IMG/VR virus record: IMGVR_UViG_2565956618_000002
Length of the DNA stretch: 13,348 nt
Source of the DNA: a virus
Lineage: Duplodnaviria; Heunggongvirae; Uroviricota; Caudoviricetes
Reading direction: 5' to 3' (one strand)
Both the position numbers and the translations under genes were made by a program. The notes below the pieces were generated by a model that did no database searches, was not told the origin of the DNA, and saw only the letters and a list, made by a program, of their open reading frames with translations. Numbering within the stretch: position 1 is the stretch's first letter; every line of letters starts with the position of its first letter. Positions 1-13,348 of this stretch are shown one piece after another.

Positions 1-547
1 CGCACTCATCACCGCGATAGGTCCAGGTGCAGGTGTTGGCCAGCATGATACGTCCCGGAAAAACAGCGCCGTCCGTTTCCGTCGGCGTGGACAGTACAAA
101 AGAGGCACTCACCGCGCTCAGTTCGCTGCACTGCTCAATGCGCCAGCGGCTGATCACCTCCTGCTCCGGATCGGCGTCGCTGTTTCCGTTGACGAAGTTC
201 ACCGCATCCAGAAAACGGGCGTAAACCTTACGCCTGACCACCGTTCCGCCGACCAGACTCTGCAGATCTTCCACCATCCCGGTGACCATACCGTACAGGT
301 TAGAAACCGTCAGTGTCGGACGGGCAGCACTGCCCTTGCCGTTCAGTTCAAATCCCGTCCCCTGAATGGGGTATACCTGATACTGCCGCCCCTGCCAGAT
401 AACCGGCTCACCTTTTTCGTTCTGCTCATTACAGAAAAAATAACGTTCACCACCGACCTCTGTCAGATCGATTTCCCAGAGCACCACCTGGGCTGACTGA
501 GTGAGGCGTGTCGTCTCATGATGTGTTTCCTGTGGAATATCCTGCAT
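1..547 (-). CDS. L: Minor tail protein L (tail tip assembly), N-terminal part only; gene continues past the window start
   Basis: ATG at 547..545 preceded by AGGAGG. Manual translation gives MQDIPQETHHETTRLTQSAQVVLWEIDLTEVGGERYFFCNEQNEKGEP..., near-identical to lambda gpL as recalled. Follows M as in lambda. The ORF track misses it because there is no stop inside the window. Confidence 0.9.
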   Translation of the reverse strand, partial: MQDIPQETHHETTRLTQSAQVVLWEIDLTEVGGERYFFCNEQNEKGEPVIWQGRQYQVYPIQGTGFELNGKGSAARPTLTVSNLYGMVTGMVEDLQSLVGGTVVRRKVYARFLDAVNFVNGNSDADPEQEVISRWRIEQCSELSAVSASFVLSTPTETDGAVFPGRIMLANTCTWTYRGDEC

Positions 548-556
548 CAGAGCCTC

Positions 557-886
557 CTATGCCACGACCTGTTCAAAATCTGCCGTTATGGTTACCCACA
601 GCGCCCCCACGCTTGCCGACCATTTACGACAAACCACCCTGATCGGTTTCCAGTCATAAGGTGGCGTCCACTGAAATGCACGGACGCCACCGTGCCGTTC
701 CAGAAAGGCTTTTAAAGATGGGTGGTCACATTTACGAACACGTATCGTCACGCTGTAAGTCGACAACTGGTTATTCAGTCCCGCCGCACGACGCTGTTCA
801 TAACCATCGCCCAGCTTCACTGTCACCACTTTCGGCTCTGATACCACATTCATATCCGGGCGCACTTTCCAGTGAAACGTCTCCAT
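557..886 (-). CDS. M: Minor tail protein M
   Basis: 109-aa ORF (METFHWKVRPDMNVV...WTPPYDW...FEQVVA), same length as lambda gpM and clearly homologous. Its ATG overlaps the H stop codon (TAATG). Confidence 0.92.
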   Translation of the reverse strand: METFHWKVRPDMNVVSEPKVVTVKLGDGYEQRRAAGLNNQLSTYSVTIRVRKCDHPSLKAFLERHGGVRAFQWTPPYDWKPIRVVCRKWSASVGALWVTITADFEQVVA

Positions 887-3800
887 TACCGATATGCTCC
901 ACTTAACCGACCACCATCACGGGCCTGCTGTTGCATAAAGTCCGCTGCCGCTTTTTTCCCGAGGTCATAAACCGCCTTCAGGGCAGCCGGACCTATCTGC
1001 CCGTTCGTGCCATCGTTATTGATCTCGATGTTGTACTGCGGGGCAAACATCGCCATACCTGAACCACCAATATCCGCCACAACCCCCAGCTTACCGTCAG
1101 CACCACGACGCAGTGGCAGAATGGCTTCAGGTCCCGCTTCCCCCATCACACCCGCGCCTTTTGCAAAAGCAAAAAACGTCGGACGGTTAACCACCGTGCC
1201 ACTGTAACGACTCAAATCAGCAGACTGATAAATCCCCCCATTGGCATTCAGGGAAAGGCTGCTGAGATCAAATCCCAGTACACTGCCAATCCCTTTTATC
1301 GATTTCATCATGGTTGCCTGCGCCAGGATTTTCGCCATATCTGACAGCACAGAAGAGGTGAAGGATTTGAAATTGAGTTTGCCGGTAGTGACAAAAGTTG
1401 CCAGGCCATTTCCCATGTTGCTGAAGGCTGACGAGAACACCTGTTCTGCTGTTCCTGCCGTATTATCTGCATCCACGGTAAAATTCTGAAATGCACGCAG
1501 GACTCCGTTTTTCCAGTTACCCTGCACAACTTCAAGCTGTTGCCAGTAACGGCGATTCTCATTCAGTTGTCGGTTCAGGCTCTCCGTCAGCGCCTGCTCG
1601 GCCTTTCTGTAGTCATCCGTGTTATATGTTCCTTTCTGCTCACTATCCCGCCTCAACTGCTCCAGCTGTTGCTGGTATTTCTGGCGAAGACTCAGTTGTA
1701 CCTGATATCGCTGCCGCTGCTGATCACCCATACCCACCGTGGCGATATCCAGGTCATGTTGCTGACGCTGAGCGCGCTCTTCTTCAGCCAGTTGACTGGT
1801 CAGCTGAATTGTTTTTTTCTTCAGCTCGTTGAGTGCCGTCTGTTTCTGAAGCTCCTGCTGTTTTACATCCAGCAGCGTCAGTGCCTGAATCAGTTCATCT
1901 TTACGGGCCAGCACACTCTTTTCATCTGCCGTCAGTTTTTTCCCGTCCAGGTCGCTGATGCGCTGCTGCAGAGCCAGAAGCTGTTTATGCGCTTCTGTCA
2001 TCCTTTCCGTGGCAATGCCTGCTGACTGTCTGGCAGCAGCAATCTGTCCTTCCACCTGTGCCTGTTGCTGACTGTACTGCAGCAATAACCGGGTGGCCTC
2101 ATCATTACGGGGTTCGCGTGTTTTTTTCTTACCGGATGCCAGGGCTTTCTCGTAACGTTCATTTTCACGTTGTATCGCCGCATCCCTGACAGCCTGATCG
2201 GCGTACTGCATGGAATTAATACGCGCAATTTCACGCTGATGTCGTGCTGCTTCCGTTTCATTCATCCGGTTCAGTGCAGCATTTTCAGCATTACGGCGTT
2301 TCTGTTGCTCCTGATAATTCTGCTCTGCCTGCTCTTTTGCATCCTGCAAATCCTTCTGGCGTTTTTTCTCCTGAAGCTCGTTAAGACGCTGCTGATCGTA
2401 CTCAACCTGAGAAGATGATGCCGTCCAGGGGAGTCTTTTCGCCCGCGACACTTTCTCCTGTAAAGCGGAAATCTGTTCATCCAGCGAGTCTTCACGACCA
2501 ATATTCATGGCCGCATCCCAGAAACGACTCCATAAATCAGACAGATACTTCAGCGTACTGCCCAGCGCATTGAGGTTATTATCAATATCCGCAGTACGCC
2601 GACCGGTTTCCTCTGCCAGTGCAGACATGGCTATCCGTGCCGCATCACTGGACCGCCCCTGTTCCCCAAGGACGCGTATCTGCTCAAGCTGAGTGGCAGT
2701 AAGAAAATGCAGCTCATTGTCCAGAGCCTTCGCGGCATTTACAGGATCATCCTTCAGCCGCTTAAACTGATTTATGGTATCGCTGACCGACTGGCCAACC
2801 GATCGCTCCATCTGTGCGGCAGCTCTCGCCACCATACCGATATCGTTTCCACGAAATGCACCACTCCCCACCACCTGAGCCAGCGCACCGGCTGCAGCAT
2901 GTTGCGTGATACCATTCCCGGAAATAGCACGACTGAGCGTCCACAGCTGCCCGGCAGTGACTCCGGCATAATGCCCCGTCAGCGACAACTGGCGGTTAAA
3001 TTCTTCCCCCTCCTTCTGACCATCATACCAGGCTTTACCCAGACCATAGACGGCCGCGGCAATACCGCCAATAACCCCGCCCAGCATCATGCCTTTCGGT
3101 GACATCAGTGTGTCTATCCATCCGGCACGGTTAGCCAGCGTTATCCCGGATCCCCTCAGCGCACCTAAATTGCCGCGAGCCAGTTCAACTATCAGAACGC
3201 CTATCTCCTGGCGGGCCGCTGCACTTTTCAGACCCAGCGAATGCGTGGCTTTTCCTGCCTGCTCCATTTTGCGGATATACACTTCTGCAGCACTGCTTAC
3301 CCCCAGCTGGGCAGCCTTAGCACGAAGCAACTCAGAAGAAGAAAGATTCTGGCGGGTTGCCTGCTCTTTAAGCTGACGGATAAACGCCACTTTCTGTCGG
3401 GTAGCCTCTTCCTCAGCCTGTGTAAGAACACGGGTTTTCGCAGTAACCTCAGAAATCAGCGCCAGATAATCCTGCTGACCAATCCCGCCACTGTTTCTGG
3501 CCTGTCGGATCTGCTGCTGAATACGCTGTAATTCCTGCAGCCCCGCACTGGCCTGTTTCACACTGTCAATCTGACGATAAAACGCAGCAGCCGCTTTATC
3601 CTGAGCCTCCGCCAGAGCCATGGCCTGCGCCTGTTCCTCGCGCATTTTCTGGCTCAGTGCCTCCATGCGCTGGCGGGTTTTCTCCACCTCGCGGGCCATG
3701 CGTTCATGAGCCTGTGCGTTCTTCTCCACCGTCTGCGCATGGACGGATGCGGCTGTTGCAGCCGAAGAAGCTGCCTGCGTTGTCTGCCGGGCGGCCTGAG

Positions 3801-3951
3801 TCTGACGCTCCATAAAACGCTGCATACGGGCAGAAGACCGTTCTGCATCGCTGGCTGCACCATTCAGAAGGTTTTTGATACGGGGAATTTCATTTTTAAA
3901 CTCTGCCGCATCAATCCCCAAATCAATGACCAGGTTGGCTATCTGGTCCAT
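886..3951 (-). CDS. H: Tail tape measure protein (lambda gpH-like), about 1021 aa
   Basis: Long ORF. N-terminus MDQIANLVIDLGIDAAEF resembles lambda H MAEPVGDLVVDLSLDAARF; C-terminus INNDGTNGQIGPAALKAVYD...RDGG closely matches the lambda H C-terminus; centre is Q/E/R/K-rich coiled coil. Start placed at ATG 3951 (GGAGG upstream); the track's 3981 start is a TTG extension. Confidence 0.9.
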   Translation of the reverse strand: MDQIANLVIDLGIDAAEFKNEIPRIKNLLNGAASDAERSSARMQRFMERQTQAARQTTQAASSAATAASVHAQTVEKNAQAHERMAREVEKTRQRMEALSQKMREEQAQAMALAEAQDKAAAAFYRQIDSVKQASAGLQELQRIQQQIRQARNSGGIGQQDYLALISEVTAKTRVLTQAEEEATRQKVAFIRQLKEQATRQNLSSSELLRAKAAQLGVSSAAEVYIRKMEQAGKATHSLGLKSAAARQEIGVLIVELARGNLGALRGSGITLANRAGWIDTLMSPKGMMLGGVIGGIAAAVYGLGKAWYDGQKEGEEFNRQLSLTGHYAGVTAGQLWTLSRAISGNGITQHAAAGALAQVVGSGAFRGNDIGMVARAAAQMERSVGQSVSDTINQFKRLKDDPVNAAKALDNELHFLTATQLEQIRVLGEQGRSSDAARIAMSALAEETGRRTADIDNNLNALGSTLKYLSDLWSRFWDAAMNIGREDSLDEQISALQEKVSRAKRLPWTASSSQVEYDQQRLNELQEKKRQKDLQDAKEQAEQNYQEQQKRRNAENAALNRMNETEAARHQREIARINSMQYADQAVRDAAIQRENERYEKALASGKKKTREPRNDEATRLLLQYSQQQAQVEGQIAAARQSAGIATERMTEAHKQLLALQQRISDLDGKKLTADEKSVLARKDELIQALTLLDVKQQELQKQTALNELKKKTIQLTSQLAEEERAQRQQHDLDIATVGMGDQQRQRYQVQLSLRQKYQQQLEQLRRDSEQKGTYNTDDYRKAEQALTESLNRQLNENRRYWQQLEVVQGNWKNGVLRAFQNFTVDADNTAGTAEQVFSSAFSNMGNGLATFVTTGKLNFKSFTSSVLSDMAKILAQATMMKSIKGIGSVLGFDLSSLSLNANGGIYQSADLSRYSGTVVNRPTFFAFAKGAGVMGEAGPEAILPLRRGADGKLGVVADIGGSGMAMFAPQYNIEINNDGTNGQIGPAALKAVYDLGKKAAADFMQQQARDGGRLSGAYR

Positions 3952-4650
3952 AACGCACACCTCCGGAAATACCTTCCCCAAGATGCATCAGTTCTTCGTC
4001 CGTTCGCTCCGGTATCCCGTTCTCTTCCGGTAAAAGGCTGAAATCAGCCACCGCAGCATCACTGCTACCGGACACCATTCTCACGATCAATGCCTTCAGC
4101 GAGGCAAACTGCGCATCCATCCACACATCACTGAAGCTCTGCATCCGGAAATAATCGCCCCACTCACCAAGCTCAGTGGCCGACATTTCCGACAGCATCC
4201 GCCGCCAGTCTGCCCGCCGGAACTCCCGGGCAAGCCGCATGACAAACTGCATTTCCCGCGTCAGGACTTTTCCGGCGTCAGCACCTCATGCTCCAAATCC
4301 CCGGCATTCTCAATGACTCCCATACCGCTCAGCGACAGAACCATCTCCGCCCCCGCTCCCAGGGCATCATACGACCATGTTGTAATAACGGATGCGCAAA
4401 GCGTCTCAACATCCTGAGACTGTTCCGCATTCCACAGTGAGCGGGAAACCAGCCAGGCATTGATATCCATCCCCATCCGCAGAAAAGCAATCTGTCGTTC
4501 AGCCTCCGGCAGTTCTCCCTCTTCGGCATCAAACTTTGCCGTTCGCTGCTGAACAAACGCCAGATATTCAATTCTCTGCAGCCCGGACAGCTCACTGAGC
4601 ACCACGGACTGCTTTTCATAATTAAACGTGCCCTGTTTCAGAAACATCAT
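3923..4650 (-). CDS. Tail assembly chaperone G-T fusion made by programmed -1 frameshift near the end of G
   Basis: The T-frame ORF (MQFVMRLAREFRR...) is open upstream through the G stop in the -1 frame. Reading GGA AAA GTC CTG ACG CGG GAA ATG CAG... joins the frames at the run GGAAAAG (plus-strand 4267..4273). Position and arrangement match lambda G/GT. Confidence 0.7.
4261..4650 (-). CDS. G: Tail assembly chaperone G
   Basis: MMFLKQGTFNYEKQSVVLSELSGLQRIEYLA... resembles lambda gpG (MFLKTESFEHNGVTVTLSELSALQRIEHLA...). ATG at 4650 with GGAG upstream; the track start at 4689 is a TTG extension. Confidence 0.85.
   Translation of the reverse strand: MMFLKQGTFNYEKQSVVLSELSGLQRIEYLAFVQQRTAKFDAEEGELPEAERQIAFLRMGMDINAWLVSRSLWNAEQSQDVETLCASVITTWSYDALGAGAEMVLSLSGMGVIENAGDLEHEVLTPEKS
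4267..4273 (-). other. Candidate -1 frameshift slippery site GGAAAAG
   Basis: Minus strand reads ACG CCG GAA AAG TCC TGA in the G frame; the T frame is GGA AAA GTC.... Lambda uses GGGAAAG at the equivalent place. Confidence 0.5.
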
Positions 4651-4662
4651 GTTCTCCACCTG

Positions 4663-4688
4663 CAAAAAAGCCCCGGATAACCGGGGCA
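4663..4688 (-). terminator. Candidate intrinsic terminator between V and G
   Basis: Minus strand reads GCCCCGG-TTAT-CCGGGGC followed by TTTTTTG: a 7-bp GC-rich stem, 4-nt loop and T-tract just after the V stop. Confidence 0.6.
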
Positions 4689-4707
4689 AATGATGAGTAT
4701 CGTCCTG

Positions 4708-5451
4708 TTAACCTGCGGCGCTGACAGCCACCGCAGCCACTGCCACAAAATCGCCGTCAGAAGTCATGCCCACAATGCTGACACTGCCCTGCTTCACGCC
4801 TTTCACCGTGGCCACAAGCCCGTTCAGGGTCACCGTGGCAGTCTGTGGATCTGTCGAATGCACACTGATCGCTTTGTCACTGGCTCCGTCAGGTTTTACT
4901 GTAAAGGTCAGCGTGGTGGTTGCTCCCACTTTTACACTGGCAGATGCCGGTGCCACCGTCAGCCCGGTAACGCTCACTGTTTCAGTGCCTTCCTCTGCCA
5001 GATACGGACGCCCCACACCGCTGATTTTCACTGTGCGGGTCATCACGTCTTTTGAGGCAATGGTTTTACCCAGTGAGCTCAGCCAGCCACGGAAAACATC
5101 AACAGTGCCGTTGGGATATTTGATACGAAACGCGCAGACTTCACCGGAGTCGAACAACTGAACCAGTTTTTTCTGCCCGCTGTCACCCGGACGCCAGGCC
5201 AGCGTCGCCGAAGTATCACCGACGGATTTCTGCCCCTGGGTTGTCGTTTTCCAGTCTGCATCTTCATCATCGAGATAAGTGTCATCTTCTGCATCAGCGG
5301 TCATTTCGCCAGGTTGCAGATCCTTCACCATCGCAAGACGCAGCCAGTCAGTGTCCGATAAAGGGTTCGCAAACGCATCGCCCTTGCCGGTGTACATCCA
5401 GAACGTCGTTCCCGCACCTTTCGTTTTTGCCAGTGGATTTGGTGTGGTCAT
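4708..5451 (-). CDS. V: Major tail protein V with C-terminal Ig-like domain
   Basis: MTTPNPLAKTKGAGTTFWMYTGKGDAFANPLSDTDW...LDDEDADW...YPNGTVDVFRGW... closely matches lambda gpV. ATG at 5451 with AGGAGGT 5 nt upstream; the track start at 5457 is GTG. Confidence 0.93.
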   Translation of the reverse strand: MTTPNPLAKTKGAGTTFWMYTGKGDAFANPLSDTDWLRLAMVKDLQPGEMTADAEDDTYLDDEDADWKTTTQGQKSVGDTSATLAWRPGDSGQKKLVQLFDSGEVCAFRIKYPNGTVDVFRGWLSSLGKTIASKDVMTRTVKISGVGRPYLAEEGTETVSVTGLTVAPASASVKVGATTTLTFTVKPDGASDKAISVHSTDPQTATVTLNGLVATVKGVKQGSVSIVGMTSDGDFVAVAAVAVSAAG

Positions 5452-5462
5452 TGCCACCTCCT

Positions 5463-5876
5463 TTAATTCGTGTACGTGATCTGGTACGTGATTTCCGCCA
5501 TCGCCCAGGTGGCCATCTCATTATCACGTTGATAGTTAAAACCGAGAGGGATCAGGGTGTCGATGAGTCCGGAAAGTGCCGGTATATCATTCAGGGCCGG
5601 GAAAATGGTGCTCTCCATCCACATATCCAGCTCTGAATCCGGTGCCTGTGCCCGGATGAAGACAGCAATATGCAGAACAGCCTGCCAGTCATCTTCATCC
5701 GTCATTTTTCCGGTGTACTGAGCATCACTCAGCCACACCGCCACGGCAGGCAGTTCCTGCGCATCAATAAATGCCGGAAGCCCGTCAAAAAACGTGGCGC
5801 TGTCTCCACACTGTTCCCGAAGGCGTGCCAGTACGGCCTGGCGGATTTGTGTATGTCGGTTCATCGGGTCAGCCAT
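5463..5876 (-). CDS. U: Tail terminator protein U
   Basis: ...ATFFDGLPAFIDAQELPAVAVWLSDAQYTG...PDSELDMWMES...DIPALSGLI...ITYQITY matches lambda gpU. ATG at 5876 (GAGG upstream); an alternative ATG at 5864 overlaps the Z stop as ATGA. Confidence 0.9.
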   Translation of the reverse strand: MADPMNRHTQIRQAVLARLREQCGDSATFFDGLPAFIDAQELPAVAVWLSDAQYTGKMTDEDDWQAVLHIAVFIRAQAPDSELDMWMESTIFPALNDIPALSGLIDTLIPLGFNYQRDNEMATWAMAEITYQITYTN

Positions 5877-6439
5877 AACCTCAGTTGTTGTTTCAGTGCA
5901 TACCCCAGCTGTTTCGGCATTTCCGCAGCAATAATGCGGTCGCGGGCATCTTCAAATGCCTGTGTCAGCGGTCCGGACAGCGGGACTTTCACCACATCAA
6001 TGGGGTAACGATTTTTGCCATCAATACGCCGCATCACATGCCAGCGACCATTCGCCAGTTGCTGAATAAACGCATCCCGGAAAAGATATTTACCCACCTT
6101 CAGCACACTGCCACGGTACTGCAGTTTTCCACCACGCCGGGCCAGTCTGACCCGGGCTGTCCCCAGCTTAATAGCGGGCAGATTGCCCCGGTTAACGCGG
6201 ATCCTGGCCGTCATTTTTCCTGACGGACTGGCTTTAAACACCCGGACACGCTGACGTACCAGTTTCAGGGGGATCCCTTTCACCTGGTTATCTCCCGCAA
6301 CGGTATTCCCGGCAACCTGCCGGGTGGCGACCGAGACCGCTTTCTGTGCCACACGGTTTATCGCCCATGCGCTGGCCTGTGGCACCATACGGGTATCAAG
6401 GCTGTTCAGATTACGGATGGCATTCTCAAGCCCCTTCAT
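5861..6439 (-). CDS. Z: Minor tail protein Z-like (tail completion)
   Basis: 192 aa, the same length as lambda gpZ, and in the lambda Z position between FII-like and U. ATG at 6439 with AGAGGTG upstream. Confidence 0.7.
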   Translation of the reverse strand: MKGLENAIRNLNSLDTRMVPQASAWAINRVAQKAVSVATRQVAGNTVAGDNQVKGIPLKLVRQRVRVFKASPSGKMTARIRVNRGNLPAIKLGTARVRLARRGGKLQYRGSVLKVGKYLFRDAFIQQLANGRWHVMRRIDGKNRYPIDVVKVPLSGPLTQAFEDARDRIIAAEMPKQLGYALKQQLRLWLTR

Positions 6440-6450
6440 CCCACACCTCT

Positions 6451-6726
6451 TTACTCAATAAAGATCATTGGCTTACCGTTAAAACGTTCATGCCGTGTGA
6501 CCGTCCATTGTTGTCCGTCATAAACAACGCGATCCCCGCGCCGTGGGCGGTATCCCGAAGAAAACACCACCAGAGAGACCGCAGGTCCGGACAGAGCATT
6601 CAGCTCTGCCAGTGTTTCTCCCGGGATCACAGTCATATCGACATCATTAATCGAGGCTGTCTTTCCCATCTTTCTAACCGTGATAGCATCCATACGCGCT
6701 GCCAGCCGGGAAAAGGGATCAGACAT
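6451..6726 (-). CDS. Head-tail joining protein (lambda FII-like)
   Basis: 91 aa. MSDPFSRLAARMDAITVRKMGKTASI... and ...RRGDRVVYDGQQWTV resemble lambda FII (MADFDNLFDAAIARADETIRGYMG..., ...RRGDTLTIGEENFWV) as recalled. Sits between head genes and Z. Confidence 0.65.
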   Translation of the reverse strand: MSDPFSRLAARMDAITVRKMGKTASINDVDMTVIPGETLAELNALSGPAVSLVVFSSGYRPRRGDRVVYDGQQWTVTRHERFNGKPMIFIE

Positions 6727-7042
6727 TGAGTTTTACCGGCACTTCTTCTGCACTGGTTCCGGCATCTGCCCAGACAACCCCGACCAGCGGATCAGAGCCG
6801 CTGTTAGTCAGCTGAACTTTTCCGGACTTCAGATAAACCTTCTTACCCGTTTTCATGTCATCCGTTTTCAGCTTAGGCAGCATAAACACACCTTCGGTCA
6901 TGCCGTCGCCTGTTTCACCCTGTGGAATATCGGTCAGCGCCACCGCAAAAACATCGCCCACCTGCACCAGATCTCCGCTGCTGATGGCTGCACTGGCAAC
7001 AATCGCCACCGTTTTTCCTTCTTCTACAAAATTCTTTGCCAT
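6719..7042 (-). CDS. Small head-associated protein (DUF2190-like), function unclear
   Basis: 108 aa from ATG 7042 (MAKNFVEEGKT...), GGAG upstream. Immediately downstream of the capsid gene, where such small proteins commonly sit in HK97-like head modules. Assignment by position and composition only. Confidence 0.55.
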   Translation of the reverse strand: MAKNFVEEGKTVAIVASAAISSGDLVQVGDVFAVALTDIPQGETGDGMTEGVFMLPKLKTDDMKTGKKVYLKSGKVQLTNSGSDPLVGVVWADAGTSAEEVPVKLNV

Positions 7043-7084
7043 AACTGTCTCCGCACAGCCCCGTTCAGGGGCTGATTTCAGGTA

Positions 7085-7106
7085 CAAAAAAAGCCCTTAC
7101 GGGCCA
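7085..7106 (-). terminator. Candidate intrinsic terminator or attenuator after the capsid gene
   Basis: Minus strand reads GCCCGTAAGGGC followed by TTTTTTTGTAC, about 25 nt after the capsid stop (7129). Short 4-bp stem, so weak. Confidence 0.45.
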
Positions 7107-7128
7107 TCAGAGTTGTTGTCTGCGACGT

Positions 7129-9087
7129 TTACGCCGTACATTTCACCAGACCGCGGTGATCAACTGGCGCGACACCGGCGTCAATACGCACTTTCGTTGT
7201 CACGCCATCCACACTGAAGCCCTCCATCTGATCAATATATGGCGTATCCACACCGTTGAGATAAGCCACTTCAATCGTATCGGAGCCTTTTGACGCAGCC
7301 AGGTAGAAGGTGGTCTGGCTGTTATCATCAAGACGAGGCTCTGCAATAACGGTCGCAAAATCTTTCACCGGGTTAATAATACCGGCGTTAATGTCAGCCC
7401 CCTTGACACTTGAGGAGCGAATGACCTGGTTAGCAACAGACTCCATCGCCGTCGGTACCAGTACGAACGCAGGACGAATATTCAGATGACGCTCCCCCTC
7501 TTTCTGAACGCGCATCAACTGGCGGGCTTTATCCAGCGATGCCACGTCCATTGCAGCGCTCTCCAGTACGTTTGCATGTTTCGCTTTATCGAACAGACTT
7601 ACATTATCTGTGGAGATTTTCGGGTTAGACGTCAGAATGGCATAAACCAGATCGGCAATAGTGGATTTCGCCGCACGGCCCAGTTTCATCGGGACATCGG
7701 TCAGCATATTCAGATCATCATTGATAATGGCCTGACGGGTGATACTGAACAGCTCGCCATAGGTCGCCAGTGCAATAGTGGCCTGTTTATCTCCGGTGGT
7801 GACGTATTTATATTCCGCCCCTTCACGCACCTGACGCAGAGCACTGAAGCCCCCCATACCCACACGATGGGCAATTTTAAAATCAGACAACTGACCTTTC
7901 CGCGTCCACTGTTCATAGGTTTCAGGGGCATCTTCCCAGCCCTGCAGAATGGCTTTGTTCGCAACATCCAGCAGAATATTACCGAAGTCAGACGTACTGT
8001 GTGTGAACGCCGCACCGACCATCTGCATCGGGTTATAACCGGAAACCCCAATACCCCGTTCAGTTAGTGACATACGGGCATATTCACGCAGGGTCATCCC
8101 GTTGTAGACATTATCACGTTCGGTTTTTTCAAATCCGGCACGCGCCATCAGCGCCTGGCGGATCCCGTCCCCCACAAAATTACCGTTACCGGCATAAATA
8201 TGAGCCGGGGTATTTTTATTGGATGGCGTGGACTCGCGCCCCATCTCGTTCAACAGCTTTTCACGGGCCTGCTCCAGCGAACATTCAGGATCGGCAAGAC
8301 ACTGGGCCTGCAGCATCTGATAACGCCCGCCAAACATGGCAAACAGATCATTAATACCGTTTACACGCGCTTTTTGCTCTGCCAGTACCTGCGCACGGAT
8401 ACTGTTTTCATCCACCACGGGTGCTGCTGCCTGCACTGGCGTCCGGGAGGCTGCAGGTTCATCATCCTGTACGCGTGGAGCACTGTTGCGTGGCGGAGTA
8501 ATCATGTTTCGAATGGATTCCGGCATCTTTTTAAATTCCTCTGTACGTTTTGACTGAATACATGCCATTGCCTTAACGGCTGGTGTCACCTGATCAGCAA
8601 ATCCCTGTGCCAGACATTCGGCACCGGACATCCAGGTCTCATCCGCCAGCATGGCAGCAATTTCATCGGTGGTTTTCCCGGTTTTCTGTGCATAAGCGGG
8701 TAACAGAACCGCCTCAACTTTATCGAGCAGGTCGGCATAGGTGCGCATGTCCTCCGCATCACCGCCCGTAAAGCCAAATGGTTTATGAATCATCATGAAG
8801 GAGTTTTCCGGCATAATGACCGGGTTTCCCACCATCGCAATGACCGACGCCATTGACGCCGCCACACCGTCGACATAAACGGTAATGGACGCACCATGTG
8901 TTTTCAGTGCATTAAAAATGGCGATGCCTTCAAAGACATCGCCACCCGGTGAATTAATATGGAGATTAATGTGGGTGATATCGCCCAGTGCATTCAGATC
9001 ACTGATAAACTGCTTCGCTGTAACACCCCAGAAACCAATCTCGTCATAAATATAAATATCCGCGTCACTCTGGTGACCTGCCTGCAT
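7129..9087 (-). CDS. Prohead protease (ClpP-like) fused in frame to an HK97-fold major capsid protein
   Basis: N-terminal part has ClpP-like motifs (IYIYDEIGFWGVTAKQFISDL, INSPGGDVFEGIAIFNA, GVAASMASVIAMVG, MIHKP); C-terminal ~340 aa has major-capsid character. Start tentatively ATG 9087 (MQAGHQSDADIYIY), about 652 aa; weak RBS, so the start is uncertain. Confidence 0.8.
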   Translation of the reverse strand: MQAGHQSDADIYIYDEIGFWGVTAKQFISDLNALGDITHINLHINSPGGDVFEGIAIFNALKTHGASITVYVDGVAASMASVIAMVGNPVIMPENSFMMIHKPFGFTGGDAEDMRTYADLLDKVEAVLLPAYAQKTGKTTDEIAAMLADETWMSGAECLAQGFADQVTPAVKAMACIQSKRTEEFKKMPESIRNMITPPRNSAPRVQDDEPAASRTPVQAAAPVVDENSIRAQVLAEQKARVNGINDLFAMFGGRYQMLQAQCLADPECSLEQAREKLLNEMGRESTPSNKNTPAHIYAGNGNFVGDGIRQALMARAGFEKTERDNVYNGMTLREYARMSLTERGIGVSGYNPMQMVGAAFTHSTSDFGNILLDVANKAILQGWEDAPETYEQWTRKGQLSDFKIAHRVGMGGFSALRQVREGAEYKYVTTGDKQATIALATYGELFSITRQAIINDDLNMLTDVPMKLGRAAKSTIADLVYAILTSNPKISTDNVSLFDKAKHANVLESAAMDVASLDKARQLMRVQKEGERHLNIRPAFVLVPTAMESVANQVIRSSSVKGADINAGIINPVKDFATVIAEPRLDDNSQTTFYLAASKGSDTIEVAYLNGVDTPYIDQMEGFSVDGVTTKVRIDAGVAPVDHRGLVKCTA

Positions 9088-9100
9088 CCTGAACCAGGAA

Positions 9101-10609
9101 TTATTCTTCGGACTGGTCGTCGGTGTGCTGCGGCTCCTGTCGTTTCGTTGCGGCACTGCTGCCTCCTTTATCACTGGCCGGATCGGTATCAAATACCAGA
9201 TCCAGCTTGCGGTTTTCATCAATTTCGGCCTTGCGCCGACGTTTGACATCATCCGGATTACGACCACCTGCACGTACCCAGTCTGATTCTGTCGCCGCTC
9301 CACCACGAATCTGAATTTTCCAGGCCTCAGCCTCCTTAACAGGGTCAATCCACGGCATCACCGGTCCGGAATACACCGCGGTATACAGTGAAGATCGGTC
9401 CAGATCGCGGGGTAGCCTGATAACACCGGATGCCACAGCCTGTTTCAGCCAGGCACGGTACATCGGGCGGGTGACGGCACCAATAAACCAGTCCTGCAGG
9501 ATCAGGTAGCCATCAGTAGATTCAACCAGCTCCTGACGCTGGGCGCTGTAAGTGCCGTTATAGTTGCGCGCTGTACTGGAAAAACTCAGACGACTGCCCG
9601 CAGCCACGGCACGCAACTGACCATTACGAAAAGTTTCAAGGTTAGGATTGGGGCGATCCGACTTCACCATTCCGATTTCTTCGCCGGGTTTCAGATCGTC
9701 GTAAATAATGCCTGGCTGAATGGTAAGCTCGCGTTCATTCTCCTTGCTGTCATTACCATCCGTTTCATAGCTCTGTCCGTCGCCTTTCCGGATGTACATC
9801 CCCAGAGCAGCGGCGATCCTTGCTGCAGTCAGCTCAGAATCTTCATACTCTTTCAGAGCACTGAGGCGGATCAGCACACCGGACAACAAAGACGTCCCGC
9901 GCATCTGGTGCAGACGGCGAACAAATTTAAGATGCAGCATTCGCTCTGCATCCACTTCTTTGGTTTCCATCTGCCGCCCGGATACGGGACGGCTTTTATA
10001 CACCAGATATTTTTCGGGACGCCCCCAGTCATCAACAAACACGCCCTGATTCAGCCTGTTGCTCTCATCACTGGTCATGGGAATAAAGTCCGGCTCGAGC
10101 GCCTCCAGCCAGAAATGAACACCGGCAGAAGGCGTCAAGCTGTTTATGCGCCCGGAAACCATCTGGGCAAACACCTCACCATCGCGCAGCCAGGTACGCA
10201 GCATCAGACGTTCCAGCATCGGACGGGTAAACTGCCCGGTGACTTCCGGACTGACAGACCATTCACTCCATCGGGTGCGTATCTCCGCTGCCAGATCACG
10301 GGCAATGGCCCCATTGCGTAATACCGGATGTGGCTCGACAATAATCCCGTTTTTCCCCACCACCCGTTCTTCCAGCTTGTCAAATACACCAATGACCAGA
10401 TCGTGGTTGTTATCAAGGTAACGGGCCTGCTCACGTAACGACACGGCCCCGTACTGGCTTAACTGGTCGGCAGTTCGGTTCTCCCGTCGGGCTTTGTGTG
10501 TCCGCGTCGTTTTTACGGCCTCATAAGCCTGAATCACCGCACGGGAACGCAGCCTTGCCGCTTTCCATCCTGGTGAAAAAACGCCAATCACATCATCAAG
10601 AATTGCCAT
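9101..10609 (-). CDS. Portal protein
   Basis: About 503-aa ORF between the gpW-like gene and the protease/capsid gene. ATG at 10609 overlaps the W stop (TGATG). Not similar to lambda gpB by eye, so the call rests on position and size. Confidence 0.8.
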   Translation of the reverse strand: MAILDDVIGVFSPGWKAARLRSRAVIQAYEAVKTTRTHKARRENRTADQLSQYGAVSLREQARYLDNNHDLVIGVFDKLEERVVGKNGIIVEPHPVLRNGAIARDLAAEIRTRWSEWSVSPEVTGQFTRPMLERLMLRTWLRDGEVFAQMVSGRINSLTPSAGVHFWLEALEPDFIPMTSDESNRLNQGVFVDDWGRPEKYLVYKSRPVSGRQMETKEVDAERMLHLKFVRRLHQMRGTSLLSGVLIRLSALKEYEDSELTAARIAAALGMYIRKGDGQSYETDGNDSKENERELTIQPGIIYDDLKPGEEIGMVKSDRPNPNLETFRNGQLRAVAAGSRLSFSSTARNYNGTYSAQRQELVESTDGYLILQDWFIGAVTRPMYRAWLKQAVASGVIRLPRDLDRSSLYTAVYSGPVMPWIDPVKEAEAWKIQIRGGAATESDWVRAGGRNPDDVKRRRKAEIDENRKLDLVFDTDPASDKGGSSAATKRQEPQHTDDQSEE

Positions 10610-10821
10610 CAGAACCTCGCCAGCCGGTACCCGGGATGCCCCCGTCGTCGTGTAATCAGAGCCGCAAGGCGGCGCTCCCACTCCTGCCGTCCCTGCCGGA
10701 TCTCAGATAAGTTTTCCATGGTCATCTGCTGACCATTAAAAGTGACGGATTTTCCGTCCAGCACCGCCATTTCAGCTTCCGTATAACGCTGAATCATGGC
10801 TTCAATATCATTCTGATTCAT
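10609..10821 (-). CDS. W: Head completion / head-tail joining protein, lambda gpW-like
   Basis: 70 aa from ATG 10821 (GGAGG 6 nt upstream). C-terminus ...ITRRRGHPGYRLARF resembles lambda gpW ...TQRRRGPAGFYV. Its ATG overlaps the terminase stop (ATGA). Confidence 0.75.
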   Translation of the reverse strand: MNQNDIEAMIQRYTEAEMAVLDGKSVTFNGQQMTMENLSEIRQGRQEWERRLAALITRRRGHPGYRLARF

Positions 10822-12650
10822 AACCATCCTCCGGAAGTCAGCCAGGGGTTAACATCGTCAGTTACTGTTTTCTTCCGTTTTTGTTTTTTAACAGGCGTGG
10901 ATACCGGCTCCGGTGAGGGTGACGGTTCGGTACTGTCCGGGACACACTCCAGCCAGGTTTCCCGGCTCGCCCACTCCGGTGCATCCGGCCAGCGGATCTT
11001 TTCGTATCCATGCAGAATGACCAGCGCCTCGGCATACACCATCAGGTCAAAAGCTTCGTTGGCACCGCGACCCGGCTTACTCCATTTCCCGTCACTGCTC
11101 CGCTCTTCATACGTCAGTTCGTCGTAAAACCAGCTCCCCAGCCAGTCAGGGAAATGCACATAGCCTGGACCTGGCGAGTCACGCCATAACGCGTTATTCA
11201 CCCGGTCTTTCAGGGCATCCGTCTGAAGAAGCCAGAGCGGCACATCACCTGCGGCCTGCGCCCGGCGGCCCGTTCGTCCGGTGTTATCAGGGAATGTACG
11301 GCTGATCAGTTTTGCGCGCCGGATGCTGTCGCCCTTAAACAGGTAAATACGTTTACCAAGGCCATCACGACGGCAACGACGCCAGAATTTATAGGCATTA
11401 TCAGTGACCCCGTCTTCACCGCCGGAATCCACCGCCATTGCCATCAGTCGCATTTGTTGAGAAGGATCGGAGGCCAGCGGCCAGCTTTTATGAAAAACAT
11501 CCGTCAGCAGGACATCCCAGTCTTCCGGATAGCTGGCCGGATCAATTCGCTGGCTCTCCCCGTCGCAGTCACTGCGCAATGACTGCGTGATGTTGTAACG
11601 ATCAATAATCCAGCGTTCGCCACGGCTGCCATAGCCCGTTACCTGAACCACAAAACGGCGATGACGTCCCGCCTGCACATCCACTGTCGCCACAAGGAAA
11701 TTAACGCCATCCGGAACACTGCGGGAAGGAACTGGCTCTGCCCGCTGCTCAAGCAGTTCACTTTTTCGTTGCTCCATGCTGGCACGAGGAAGATAAGGCA
11801 ATCCCCAGTCGGTGTTGATAACCGCCCTGAGTGTTTCTTCGCTTCCTGTCGCTTCATACTCCTGTTCTGCAGTCAGTAATTTGTAAACCAGTTGCGCCCA
11901 GGTCTGATACGCAGCAGCTGGCCCTTCCATCCAGAAACTGGCGATACGGGAGCGGCGCGGTTCACCGGAAACGTTGCCGTTACGATCAATGACCTGACCT
12001 TCACGTAACCAGACTCCTGCACTATTGAGCTCACGCTTTTTCTCCGCAGTGATAATGCCGCTGCAGTGCGGGCAAAGTAGATACGCCGCCTCACTGGCTT
12101 TAAAGGGATCCGGTTCATTACGGTAGCCGGTCATGGCATCCATAGCTGGCTGAAAATATTCACCGCAGTGCGGACATGGCCAGTACCAGCGGCGGCGGTC
12201 ACCACGATTGTAAAGGGAAAGAATACCAGTCGTCGGTGGCGCTTCATGAGGCGACTTACGTCGCCATTTGCTGTCGCAGATGTCACGTCCCGGCGAGCTC
12301 TCCACCAGAGTCATCCCGGCGGACATAAATGTGGTGGTACGTTTTGAGGCCAGGGAGAAACCATCACCCTCGCTGTCGATATTCTCCGGAAAACGGTCGT
12401 AATCGGTTAAGGCGACAAACCGGTAATCCGACGACGACATAATGTTGACCGAGGGCCAACCAATTTTAAGGAACGAGCCATCCCTGAACGTCTTATCATG
12501 GACATTATTGTCGTTACGACGTGGACTCATTCTTTTCTTTACCGCCGCACTGCTTCTGAACGTTCTGTCGAGGCGCTTTTTAGAATGCTCGCGGGCCTTA
12601 TCTGATGCGCCGCGCGATAAATGCACTCTATCTTGTGCGATAAATGGCAT
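10818..12650 (-). CDS. Large terminase subunit (lambda gpA family), apparently 5'-truncated and possibly inactive
   Basis: 610-aa ORF with strong gpA-like regions (WPCPHCGEYF zinc-finger-like motif as lambda ACPHCGEE; VALTDYDRF near the lambda Walker B VAGYDE). No P-loop/Walker A motif is present, and similarity starts around lambda residue ~95-125. The frame is closed 30 bp below the invertase stop. Confidence 0.85.
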   Translation of the reverse strand: MPFIAQDRVHLSRGASDKAREHSKKRLDRTFRSSAAVKKRMSPRRNDNNVHDKTFRDGSFLKIGWPSVNIMSSSDYRFVALTDYDRFPENIDSEGDGFSLASKRTTTFMSAGMTLVESSPGRDICDSKWRRKSPHEAPPTTGILSLYNRGDRRRWYWPCPHCGEYFQPAMDAMTGYRNEPDPFKASEAAYLLCPHCSGIITAEKKRELNSAGVWLREGQVIDRNGNVSGEPRRSRIASFWMEGPAAAYQTWAQLVYKLLTAEQEYEATGSEETLRAVINTDWGLPYLPRASMEQRKSELLEQRAEPVPSRSVPDGVNFLVATVDVQAGRHRRFVVQVTGYGSRGERWIIDRYNITQSLRSDCDGESQRIDPASYPEDWDVLLTDVFHKSWPLASDPSQQMRLMAMAVDSGGEDGVTDNAYKFWRRCRRDGLGKRIYLFKGDSIRRAKLISRTFPDNTGRTGRRAQAAGDVPLWLLQTDALKDRVNNALWRDSPGPGYVHFPDWLGSWFYDELTYEERSSDGKWSKPGRGANEAFDLMVYAEALVILHGYEKIRWPDAPEWASRETWLECVPDSTEPSPSPEPVSTPVKKQKRKKTVTDDVNPWLTSGGWL

Positions 12651-12680
12651 CCACGCGGCGTTTCATTATTTGAAAAAGAA

Positions 12681-13253
12681 TTACATTTCAGGTTGCGTTA
12701 TGACAGTCCCAACAGGGTGATAGCGGTAGATCGTTGACAGTCCAATATCATAGATAATTGCCAGCCGCTTTCTGTCATACCCTTTCTGGAGCAATCTTGC
12801 GATCTGCTCATGCTGCTCCTTCGTCAGTTTCGGGCGACGTCCTCCAACTCTTCCTTGTGCTCGCGCAGCAGCCAGTCCTGCCAGCGTGCGCTCAACTATC
12901 AGTTCACGCTCCATTTCTGCCAGTGCACCCATCATATGAAAAAAGAACCTTCCCATCGGAGTGCTGGTATCGATTGAATCCGTCAGACTGCGAAAATTGA
13001 CACCTTTTGCGCGTAGCTCTTCTGTGAGAGCAATGAGGTGTTTCATTCTTCTACCCAACCGATCCAGCTTCCAGACCACCAATGTATCCCCTCTTTTAAG
13101 GCACTTTAAAGCGCGTTTCAGGCCTGGTCGTTCCGACTTGGTTCCGCTCATTTTGTCCTCAAAAATCTGTTCACATCCTGCGCACATTAATGCATTGCGT
13201 TGCAAATCTGTGTTTTGGTCATTTGTTGACACACGTATGTAGCCAATCAGCAT
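12681..13253 (-). CDS. pin: Serine DNA invertase of the Pin/Gin/Hin/Cin family
   Basis: MLIGYIRVSTNDQNTDLQRNALMCAGCEQIFEDK...GDTLVVWKLDRLGR...GRFFFHMMGALAEMERELIVERTLAGLAAARAQGR.GGRRPKLT... is almost co-linear with e14 Pin and Salmonella Hin as recalled; catalytic Ser in YIRVST. ATG at 13253; the track's extension to 13343 starts at a non-ATG codon and is not used. Confidence 0.93.
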   Translation of the reverse strand: MLIGYIRVSTNDQNTDLQRNALMCAGCEQIFEDKMSGTKSERPGLKRALKCLKRGDTLVVWKLDRLGRRMKHLIALTEELRAKGVNFRSLTDSIDTSTPMGRFFFHMMGALAEMERELIVERTLAGLAAARAQGRVGGRRPKLTKEQHEQIARLLQKGYDRKRLAIIYDIGLSTIYRYHPVGTVITQPEM

Positions 13254-13307
13254 TAAAAATACTCCCTTTTGAGTGGTTAAAGTACTGAGATAATGTGGGG
13301 AGGATTT

Positions 13308-13333
13308 GAGAGATAAACGTTGGTTTGGGGGAA
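13308..13333 (-). other. Candidate invertase crossover site (hix/gix-like), about 55 bp upstream of pin
   Basis: Minus strand reads TTCCCCCAAACCAACGTTTATCTCTC; it matches hixL (TTCTTGAAAACCAAGGTTTTTGATAA) at 15 of 26 positions, including the AAACC-AA-(G)GTTT core. The right half is diverged. Confidence 0.3.
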
Positions 13334-13348
13334 GGCTCTGCATTGCCT

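What the first reader, a model, noticed from the sequence alone, without database searches (positions are those of the whole stretch)
13254..13348. Possible hix/gix-like recombination site implying an invertible segment just beyond the window
A 26-bp sequence about 55 bp upstream of the invertase start matches the Din-family crossover-site consensus in its left half and central core (TTCnnnnAAACC-AA-GTTT). The spacing is similar to that between hixL and hin as recalled. The diverged right half is what a site at the border of an invertible segment might look like. If real, the invertase controls a switchable segment, classically alternative tail-fibre C-termini, immediately right of this window. 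No second site was found between the invertase stop and the terminase.
Basis: partly seen in the sequence, partly recalled or inferred. Interest (0 to 1): 0.55.

Follow-up and report, generated by a model that had tools for sequence, protein, structure and literature searches.

The report
Tail-fibre switch site beside phage invertase
The 26-bp sequence upstream of the invertase is a real crossover site of a textbook Gin/Min-type DNA-inversion switch that swaps phage tail-fibre tips; the switch belongs to a Mu-like transposable prophage that has jumped into the terminase gene of a second prophage.

Summary
Observation confirmed, interpretation supported; the system is of a well-known kind.

- **The site.** On the - strand at 13333..13308 lies TTCCCCCAAACC-AA-CGTTTATCTCTC. 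It is unique in the window (0 of 200 shuffles). Its AA core is 67 nt upstream of the ATG of an invertase 77% identical to Mu Gin, the same spacing as gixR-gin in Mu.
- **The segment, seen only in relatives.** The window stops 27 nt past the core. E. coli genomes more than 99% identical over 12603-13348 continue into a 1.6-2.1 kb segment. It holds promoterless tail-fibre C-terminal cassettes and one tail-fibre assembly gene. It ends at an inverted partner site (TTCCCCCAAACC-AA-GGTAATTGAGGA) inside the tail-fibre gene, and some genomes have a third, internal site.
- **Evidence of switching.** Repeat homology stops exactly at the AA core. Two isolates with the prophage at the same insertion point differ only by a clean flip of the 2,131-bp segment (2 mismatches in 10,747 nt after re-inversion). 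All four isomers of the three-site form occur in assemblies.
- **Closest known.** The sites nearly match the p15B Min "mix" sites. A homologous three-site switch in EPEC E2348/69 was shown experimentally to flip.
- **Correction.** The invertase and site belong to a BcepMu/phiE255-like transposable prophage whose end is at 12603. That prophage interrupts the lambdoid terminase gene.

The parts
13308..13333 (-). 26-bp crossover site ('site A', invertase-proximal): inner half TTCCCCCAAACC (13333..13322), core AA (13321..13320), outer half CGTTTATCTCTC (13319..13308)
   Evidence: for sequence and uniqueness. for the match to published pix/mix sites. Searches show that inverted-repeat homology to the partner site stops at the core. 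One search shows a clean inversion between this site and its partner in relatives.
13322..13348 (+). First 27 nt of the invertible segment. This is the start of a promoterless tail-fibre C-terminal cassette, read on the + strand (GGT TTG GGG GAA GGC TCT GCA TTG CCT = GLGEGSALP). The window ends here.
   Evidence: every cassette in relatives begins GLGEGSALPVGVPVPWP. Phage Tail Collar domain; annotated as phage tail protein.
13254..13307 (-). Invertase leader, with a Shine-Dalgarno GGGAG at 13266..13262. A weak promoter may overlap the outer half-site (TTTATC 13317..13312, 16 nt, CATTAT 13295..13290); this is inferred only.
   Evidence: The consensus scan found no promoter, so the promoter is my reading, not a tool result. 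The leader aligns without gaps to the Mu gixR-gin leader.
12681..13253 (-). Serine DNA invertase, 190 aa, of the Gin/Cin/Pin/Min (Din) subfamily. Ser9 lies in YIRVSTNDQ and the C-terminus carries an HTH.
   Evidence: translation. (Pfam Resolvase 8e-51 plus HTH_7). (77% identical to Mu Gin). (best solved structures are Gin 4m6f/3uj3). (86% identical to the EPEC prophage invertase).
12603..12680 (.). Terminal 78 bp of the Mu/BcepMu-like transposable prophage. It starts TGATGCGCC and has two GCGATAAATG repeats (12614-12623 and 12637-12646), probably transposase-binding sites.
   Evidence: homology in about 750 genomes stops here, next to a different host gene each time; identical end sequence at six different junctions; repeat coordinates.
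10818..12602 (-). Context, not part of the switch: a lambdoid terminase large-subunit gene (gpA type) that has lost its first 105 codons to the insertion.
   Evidence: the ATPase-domain match starts at profile position 66; the intact 699-aa gene in ATCC 25922 is identical to the window up to the junction at 12602/12603 (both sequences read T at 12603) and then diverges.

Best explanation
The sequence at 13308-13333 is the invertase-proximal crossover site of a Gin/Pin/Min-type site-specific inversion switch, carried at the right end of a BcepMu/phiE255-like transposable prophage.

Proposed mechanism:
1. Dimers of the adjacent serine invertase bind this site and an inverted partner site inside the tail-fibre gene, 1.6-2.1 kb to the right of the window.
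2. The invertase cuts both sites with a 2-nt stagger at the central AA, rotates the half-sites and religates.
3. This flips the intervening segment and joins a different promoterless C-terminal cassette to the constant N-terminal part of the tail fibre. The cassettes are Sv1 with its assembly gene, Sv2 and, in some genomes, a third cassette I call SvX. The phage's receptor-binding tip changes as a result.

Where a third, internal site is present, two nested inversions give four isomers and three alternative fibres, as in the Min system of p15B.

Shown here: the site, its position relative to the invertase, the invertase family, and (in near-identical relatives) the partner sites, the cassettes and the flipped states.

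Inferred: that the window's own genome has the same continuation; the chemistry (taken from Gin and Hin); dependence on Fis and an enhancer; and the effect on host range.
For: 1. The site matches the Din consensus, is unique in the window and is absent from 200 shuffles.
2. Its core lies 67 nt upstream of the invertase start, the same as Mu gixR-gin, and the two leaders align without gaps.
3. The invertase is 77% identical to Gin and its best solved-structure hits are Gin.
4. In relatives the 229-nt inverted repeat ends exactly at the AA core. The shared inner half is TTCCCCCAAACC-AA; the outer halves are CGTTTATCTCTC at site A and GGTAATTGAGGA at site B.
5. Strains AVS0662 and C7 carry the prophage at the same host position. 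They differ at 1,246 positions as deposited, but at only 2 of 10,747 once the 2,131-bp segment between the two cores is reverse-complemented. Polymorphisms 22 nt inside the arms moved with the segment.
6. The cassette next to the invertase in N61 is 99.6% identical to the cassette fused to the fibre gene in AF19, and the converse holds at 97.3%.
7. All four isomers of the three-site form occur in assemblies.
8. A variant inner half-site, TTCTCCTAAACC, travels with cassette Sv1 to different positions while the outer halves stay in place. This maps exchange to AAACC-AA.
9. The invertase is followed by Sv1 then tfa in 299 genomes, and by the flipped arrangement in 203.
10. The sites are near-identical to p15B mix sites. 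The internal site matches mixN''O' at 25 of 26 positions, and site B shares its inner half plus GGTAAT with mixQ''R' (my comparison with Table 3).
11. A homologous three-site system in EPEC E2348/69 has the same inner half and core and an invertase 86% identical. Sequencing and PCR showed four variants coexisting in culture (PMC4272514).
Against: The window ends 27 nt past the core, and its source genome was not found in any collection. The partner site, the cassettes and the switching are therefore extrapolated from relatives.

Assemblies give one consensus orientation per genome; no read-level heterogeneity was examined here.

No promoter was found for the invertase by the consensus scan. 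A Fis enhancer could not be pinned down.

The outer half-site lacks the distal GAA of the consensus.
Confidence: 0.9

Rival explanations
1. The flips seen between genomes arise from RecA-dependent homologous recombination between the 229-nt inverted repeats. The Din-like 26-mer at the repeat's edge would then play no role.
For: The repeats are long and 90-96% identical, which is enough for homologous recombination. Assemblies alone cannot show which enzyme acted.
Against: Homology ends exactly at the AA core of a consensus Din site at every copy. In the AVS0662/C7 pair the arm polymorphism nearest the core, 22 nt from it, moved with the segment, so the exchange lay within about 23 bp of the repeat's outer edge. 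The half-site variant TTCTCCT stays with its cassette while outer halves stay in place, which puts exchange in AAACC-AA. An intact Gin-type invertase sits 67 nt away.
Confidence: 0.04
2. In this particular genome the site is an orphan. The prophage would be truncated or rearranged just beyond the window, leaving no partner site and a segment that no longer switches.
For: The window stops 27 nt into the segment and the source could not be retrieved. Prophage decay is common, and some relatives carry degraded fibre genes (pseudogene fragments in L014).
Against: The 746 bp present are 100% identical to N61, which has a complete 38-kb prophage with partner site. The invertase ORF is intact. All eight relatives fetched whose sequence reaches that far have a partner site.
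Confidence: 0.06
3. The 26-mer is a chance resemblance, or merely a regulatory element of the invertase, and is not a recombination site.
For: The outer half matches the consensus only at GTTT. A weak promoter may overlap it (my reading).
Against: There were 0 of 200 shuffles with a match. The site's position is identical to gixR in Mu. It coincides with the inversion breakpoints in relatives.
Confidence: 0.01

Closest known systems
Min / mix multiple-inversion system of plasmid p15B (a P1-related plasmid of E. coli 15T-)
   Same: The inner half-site TTCCCCCAAACC and the AA core are identical. The internal site CGTTTTTATGCG differs by one base from mixN''O', and the fibre-proximal outer half GGTAAT... 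resembles mixQ''R'. In both systems several promoterless tail-fibre C-terminal cassettes are shuffled by one Din invertase. An identical invertase protein, with four cassettes, sits on a 93.5-kb plasmid carrying phage-like genes, which I take to be P1-like.
   Different: Here the system is carried by a Mu/BcepMu-like transposable prophage and has two or three sites in the genomes examined, against six in p15B. Identity to the Min protein itself could not be tested because the p15B sequence is not in the collections.
Gin / gix G-segment of phage Mu
   Same: The invertase lies outside the segment at the right end of a transposable phage. The core-to-start spacing is 67 nt in both. The proteins are 77% identical. 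In both, the segment carries alternative fibre C-termini read from a constant 5' part.
   Different: The Mu core is GA, not AA, and gixL and gixR are perfect inverted copies. Mu has two complete S/U sets, whereas this segment has one assembly gene and two or three cassettes. No com/mom genes follow the invertase (only 78 bp to the element end). The host phage has a BcepMu-type layout with divergent early and late operons, and its transposase is 68.5% identical to BcepMu's and 69.4% to phiE255's.
Three-repeat tail-fibre 'shufflon' of a P2-like prophage in EPEC E2348/69 (Goldberg et al. 2014, PMC4272514)
   Same: The architecture is the same: fibre gene, cassette, cassette, inverted assembly gene plus cassette, then invertase. 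The inner half-site and core are the same, and the invertases are 86% identical. Four coexisting variants were shown experimentally there.
   Different: It sits in a P2-like prophage. The cassettes are only about 73-76% identical at the DNA level, and the outer half-sites differ.
Pin / pix of the e14 element, and Cin / cix of P1
   Same: These are Din-family invertases beside an invertible fibre segment. pixR (TTCTCCCAAACC AA CGTTTATGAAAA) shares 11 of 12 inner positions and CGTTTAT of the outer half with the window site.
   Different: They are two-site systems in other phage backgrounds.
Hin / hix of Salmonella
   Same: Same invertase subfamily and same 26-bp site design with an AA core.
   Different: hin lies inside its segment, and the inversion moves a promoter rather than swapping coding cassettes. 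In the window the invertase is outside the segment.

Membership tests
Din-family (Hin/Gin/Cin/Pin/Min) inversion system | 26-bp site made of two 12-bp imperfect inverted halves around a 2-bp core, matching TTC---AAAC- -A -GTTT---GAA | tested here: met
   12 of 15 specified positions match (my count against the consensus). The inner half matches at every specified position, the core is AA, and the outer half keeps GTTT but lacks GAA.
Din-family (Hin/Gin/Cin/Pin/Min) inversion system | Adjacent small serine recombinase of the invertase subclass (catalytic Ser9/10, C-terminal HTH) | tested here: met
   Pfam Resolvase plus HTH_7. 77% identical to Gin. Top solved-structure hits are Gin, E about 1e-93.
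Din-family (Hin/Gin/Cin/Pin/Min) inversion system | Second site in inverted orientation with the same core dinucleotide | tested here: inconclusive
   It would lie outside the window, and the source genome could not be retrieved. It is met in relatives at least 99.6% identical to the window: TTCCCCCAAACC AA GGTAATTGAGGA, 1.6-2.1 kb away.
Din-family (Hin/Gin/Cin/Pin/Min) inversion system | Segment found in both orientations with breakpoints at the core | tested here: met
   Met in relatives. AVS0662 and C7 differ by a clean flip. Four isomers occur. Genome counts are 299 versus 203. The half-site variant maps exchange to AAACC-AA.
Din-family (Hin/Gin/Cin/Pin/Min) inversion system | Fis-bound recombinational enhancer, classically inside the 5' part of the invertase gene | tested here: inconclusive
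   The 5' coding DNA aligns well with Mu gin. A 15-mer of the G-N13-C form centred at +101 is shared with Mu and EPEC. No pair of such sites 48 bp apart is conserved. Fis dependence needs biochemistry.
Din-family (Hin/Gin/Cin/Pin/Min) inversion system | Staggered 2-nt cleavage at the core with a phosphoserine intermediate | not testable with these tools
   Inferred from Gin and Hin biochemistry (PMC3575834, PMC3798978).
Min-type multiple inversion system ('shufflon-like') | Three or more crossover sites that allow nested inversions and more than two alternative C-termini | tested here: inconclusive
   Some relatives have three sites and four isomers (L004, L007, L008, L012, L013). Others have two sites (N61, L003). 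Which form the window's genome has cannot be told from 27 nt.
Hin-type promoter switch | Invertase gene inside the invertible segment, with the inversion moving a promoter | tested here: not met
   The site is upstream of the invertase and the element ends 78 bp after the invertase stop. The segment lies on the other side and carries coding cassettes.
Mu-like / BcepMu-like transposable phage (the carrier element) | DDE transposase plus ATPase, Gam and Mor; insertion at many unrelated host positions; a defined end sequence | tested here: met
   The relative in N61 has all these genes. Its transposase is 98.6% identical to Escherichia phage PhiKM's, 69.4% to phiE255's and 68.5% to BcepMu's. The same end, TGATGCGCC..., abuts different host genes in each genome. 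In N61 the interrupted gene resumes at the far end, with GCTATC on both sides.

The most novel reading that the evidence does not exclude
The same inner half-site and core (TTCCCCCAAACC-AA) and near-identical invertases occur in three places: this Mu-like prophage, P1-like plasmids (identical invertase protein) and P2-like prophages. One invertase might therefore act in trans on all of them in a poly-lysogen. This would let cassettes be captured or exchanged between unrelated phages.

In addition, the single assembly gene is co-oriented with the expressed fibre in only two of the four isomers (I and IV). The switch might thus also toggle chaperone supply, not just the fibre tip. Neither idea was tested here.
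Probability: 0.15. Interest if true: 0.4.

Novelty: new member of a known kind. Interest (0 to 1): 0.15.

Why it matters
The finding matters little beyond correct annotation.

- **Correct labels.** The 'recombinase family protein' and 'phage tail protein' fragments at this prophage end are a Gin/Min-type host-range switch.
- **Assembly and comparison.** Contigs and gene calls around it will differ between isolates and within cultures for a trivial reason. This affects assembly and comparative genomics of the roughly 11-14% of complete E. coli genomes that carry it.
- **Prophage status.** The lambdoid prophage in the window has been inactivated by a Mu-like insertion in its terminase gene.
- **Prior reports.** Rearrangements of this prophage's fibre genes were noted without a mechanism in ST131 isolates (bioRxiv 10.1101/2022.05.07.487787). 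The site mapping here supplies that mechanism.

Tried and rejected
- **Finding the source genome.** No complete E. coli genome spans the terminase/prophage junction. Exact 33-nt junction scans of viral, genome and metagenome contig collections found nothing. The window's own continuation therefore stays unseen.
- **Promoter and terminator scan of 12550-13348.** It returned nothing. The weak promoter I mention is only my own reading.
- **Fis-site search in the 5' part of the invertase gene.** Candidate sites exist, but no conserved pair 48 bp apart was found, so no enhancer call was made.
- **NCBIfam.** It gave only sub-threshold hits to other serine recombinase models and was of no use for naming.
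- **Longer ORF starting at 13343 (220 aa).** Rejected. Alignment with Gin, the GGGAG ribosome-binding site and the RefSeq models (573 nt) all place the start at 13253.
- **Hin-type promoter switch.** Rejected, because the invertase is outside the segment.
- **Invertase belonging to the lambdoid phage that carries the terminase.** Rejected.

Full report
**1. What is in the window**

The - strand of 13348..13245 reads AGGCAATGCAGAGCC TTCCCCCAAACC AA CGTTTATCTCTC AAATCC...GGGAGTATTTTTA ATG. The 26-mer occupies 13333..13308, and its AA core is 13321..13320.

The ATG at 13253 opens a 190-aa ORF ending at 12681. It has a Resolvase catalytic domain (E 8e-51) and a resolvase HTH. It is 77% identical to Mu Gin over 181 residues, and its best solved-structure matches are the two Gin entries.

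The longer mechanical ORF from 13343 is not the gene. The start at 13253 aligns with the gin start, has GGGAG 8 nt upstream, and is the start used in all RefSeq relatives.

The pattern TTCNNNNAAACCNNNGTTT occurs once in the window and never in 200 shuffles. That base is how the published Din consensus is written (PMC3241671 Table 3).

**2. The invertase and site are not part of the phage that carries the terminase**

A search with 12600-13348 found 751 of 5,426 complete E. coli genomes, with 601 records at 99% identity or better. Homology always stops at window position 12602/12603. A different host gene lies next to it each time: dcuC, lplA, fadL, irp2, upaG, a FHIPEP gene and others. No genome spans the junction with the terminase.

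The common end reads TGATGCGCCGCGCGATAAATGCA... at every junction examined. It carries two GCGATAAATG repeats, at 12614-12623 and 12637-12646.

In strain N61, which is 100% identical to the window over 12599-13348, this is one end of a roughly 38-kb element that interrupts a cysteine hydrolase gene. The element carries:
- a DDE transposase, an ExeA-type ATPase, Gam and Mor;
- lysis, head and contractile-tail genes;
- a tail fibre and the invertase.

Its transposase is 98.6% identical to that of Escherichia phage PhiKM, 69.4% to Burkholderia phage phiE255 and 68.5% to BcepMu.

To the left of 12603, the window is identical (3,400 of 3,400 nt) to a lambdoid prophage of E. coli ATCC 25922, whose terminase large subunit is 699 aa. 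The window lacks that gene's first 105 codons. Consistent with this, the Pfam ATPase-domain match starts at profile position 66.

So the window shows a Mu-like transposable prophage inserted into the terminase gene of a lambdoid prophage. The finding lies in the last 746 bp, which belong to the Mu-like element.

**3. What lies beyond the window, judged from near-identical relatives**

In N61 the site is followed on the + strand by a promoterless 171-codon tail-fibre cassette (Sv1) and a tail-fibre assembly gene. Next comes, on the - strand, the end of the tail-fibre gene, whose last roughly 160 codons form a second cassette (Sv2). A 229-nt inverted repeat, 96% complementary, flanks this segment.

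The sites, read from inside the segment outwards, are:
- invertase-proximal (site A): TTCCCCCAAACC AA CGTTTATCTCTC;
- fibre-proximal (site B): TTCCCCCAAACC AA GGTAATTGAGGA.

Homology ends exactly after the AA core.

Other genomes (AF19, C7, AVS0662, EC11, AVS0575) have a third cassette of 514 bp (SvX), bounded by an internal site TTCCCCCAAACC AA CGTTTTTATGCG. Yet others have a 439-bp cassette instead.

Every cassette begins GLGEGSALPVGVPVPWP, which is encoded by the inner half-site and the bases after it. The cassettes carry a Phage Tail Collar domain, and the assembly gene is a Caudo_TAP family member.

In window coordinates the partner would lie about 1.6 kb (two-site form) or 2.1 kb (three-site form) to the right of 13320.

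**4. Evidence that the site recombines**

(a) Cassette Sv1 is next to the invertase in N61 but fused to the fibre gene in AF19 (99.6% identity over 518 nt). Sv2 shows the converse at 97.3%.

(b) Strains AVS0662 (a Swiss river) and C7 (Italian water) carry the prophage at the same nucleotide of the same FHIPEP pseudogene. As deposited they differ at 1,246 positions. After reverse-complementing the 2,131 bp between the two cores they differ at 2 of 10,747. The arm polymorphism nearest the core, 22 nt away, moved with the segment. Exchange therefore took place within about 23 bp of the repeat's outer edge.

(c) All four isomers predicted for a three-site system are present in assemblies:

| Isomer | Locus or loci |
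|---|---|
| I | L004, L008 |
| II | L007 |
| III | L012 |
| IV | L013 |

(d) A variant inner half-site, TTCTCCTAAACC, stays with cassette Sv1 whether that cassette sits at the internal site (L012, L014) or at the fibre-proximal site (L002). The outer halves stay in place. This puts the exchange point in AAACC-AA.

(e) Across the collection, the invertase is followed (directly or after one extra cassette) by Sv1 then the assembly gene in 299 genomes, and by the flipped arrangement in 203.

These data argue strongly against chance. They also argue against RecA-mediated exchange somewhere within the 229-nt repeats.

**5. Comparison with known systems**

- **Mu.** The annotated G-segment boundary lies 67 nt before the gin start. 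The window's core lies 67 nt before its ATG, and the two leaders align without gaps.
- **Published Din sites.** The window site shares 11 of 12 inner positions and CGTTTAT with pixR. Its inner half and core are identical to mixMI''L', mixN''O' and mixQ''R' of p15B. The internal site of relatives differs from mixN''O' at one of 26 positions. The fibre-proximal outer half begins GGTAAT, as in mixQ''R'.
- **EPEC E2348/69.** A P2-like prophage has the same layout and the same inner half and core, with an invertase 86% identical. Goldberg et al. showed by sequencing and PCR that its four variants coexist in culture (PMC4272514).
- **P1-like plasmid.** The identical invertase protein (WP_000904922.1), with four cassettes, is also on a 93.5-kb plasmid carrying phage-like genes, which I take to be P1-like.
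- **ST131 preprint.** A preprint on ST131 isolates noted rearranged fibre genes and an invertase in a 'phiE255'-type prophage, without mapping sites.

The system is thus a further member of the Gin/Pin/Min group, closest to Min. It is not Hin-like in layout, because the invertase lies outside the segment and coding cassettes, not a promoter, are moved.

**6. Mechanism and status of each step**

Shown:
- the site and its position;
- the invertase family;
- in relatives, the partner sites, the cassettes, the flipped states and a breakpoint within a few bases of the core.

Inferred from Gin and Hin biochemistry (PMC3575834, PMC3798978): binding of invertase dimers to each site, 2-nt staggered cleavage at AA through Ser9, subunit rotation and religation.

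Unresolved:
- **Fis and enhancer.** The 5' coding DNA aligns well with gin, and a G-N13-C 15-mer centred at +101 is shared. No conserved pair 48 bp apart was found.
- **Invertase promoter.** The consensus scan found none. A weak TTTATC-16-CATTAT overlapping the outer half-site is only my reading.

Not tested: any change in host range.

**7. Limits**

The window ends 27 nt inside the segment, and its source was not found. The partner site in this genome is therefore inferred from relatives that are 99.6-100% identical over the 746 bp available.

Assemblies give one orientation each, and no reads were examined.

**8. Verdict**

One correction applies: the switch belongs to a Mu-like prophage that interrupts the terminase gene.

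This is a textbook kind of system with experimentally studied close homologues, so it is of low interest.

Noticed in passing
window 12602/12603 (junction); 10818-12602: Prophage within a prophage. A Mu/BcepMu-like transposable prophage end (TGATGCGCC...) abuts a lambdoid terminase large-subunit gene that has lost its first 105 codons. The rest of the lambdoid late region (1-12602) is identical to a prophage of E. coli ATCC 25922. The lambdoid prophage should be unable to package DNA.
   Followed up: yes
window 12614-12623 and 12637-12646: Two direct GCGATAAATG repeats lie just inside the transposable prophage end. Similar GAGATAAAT(G/A) repeats sit at the opposite end in strain N61 (L006, about 25990-26010). 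They are probably transposase-binding sites. In N61 the host sequence GCTATC flanks both ends, so the target duplication may be 5 or 6 bp.
   Followed up: partly
window 12603-12680: Only 78 bp separate the invertase stop from the element end. There is no com/mom module, unlike in Mu.
   Followed up: partly
L003 12004-24750 plus L006 1-26020 (E. coli N61): The roughly 38-kb prophage has its early operon (HTH, transposase, ATPase, Gam, Mor) and its late operon (lysis, head, tail, fibre, invertase) pointing away from each other towards the two ends. This layout is unlike Mu's. A DNA adenine methylase and a nucleoid-associated protein gene lie between the two operons.
   Followed up: partly
L004, L007, L008, L012, L013 (invertible segment): The segment has only one tail-fibre assembly gene for three cassettes. 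That gene is co-oriented with the expressed fibre gene only in isomers I and IV. Fibres ending in Sv2 (isomer III), or in SvX in isomer II, would be made without co-transcribed chaperone.
   Followed up: no
L015 (plasmid pKY1497_2, 93.5 kb) 4634-9169: The identical invertase protein (WP_000904922.1) and cassettes about 98% identical lie on a plasmid with phage-like genes (probably P1-like), here with four cassettes. The switch module therefore moves between unrelated phage types.
   Followed up: partly
L003 14509-15258; L004 9014-10153: The constant part of the tail-fibre gene contains 168-nt tandem repeats (Pfam Phage_fiber_2) whose copy number differs between strains: 3 versus 6 copies, giving 531-aa and 667-aa proteins.
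   Followed up: no
window 7129-9348 and 9101-10681 (- strand): The lambdoid late region encodes a ClpP-protease/major-capsid fusion ORF. Its mechanical TTG start overlaps the portal ORF by 248 nt, so the true start is probably further downstream.
   Followed up: no
phage collection records PV468777.1 and CP025887.1: Two deposited 'phage genomes' that contain this region look like mis-bounded prophage predictions. PV468777.1 includes the host genes pflB, focA, ycaO, serC and aroA, and stops inside the invertible segment.
   Followed up: partly
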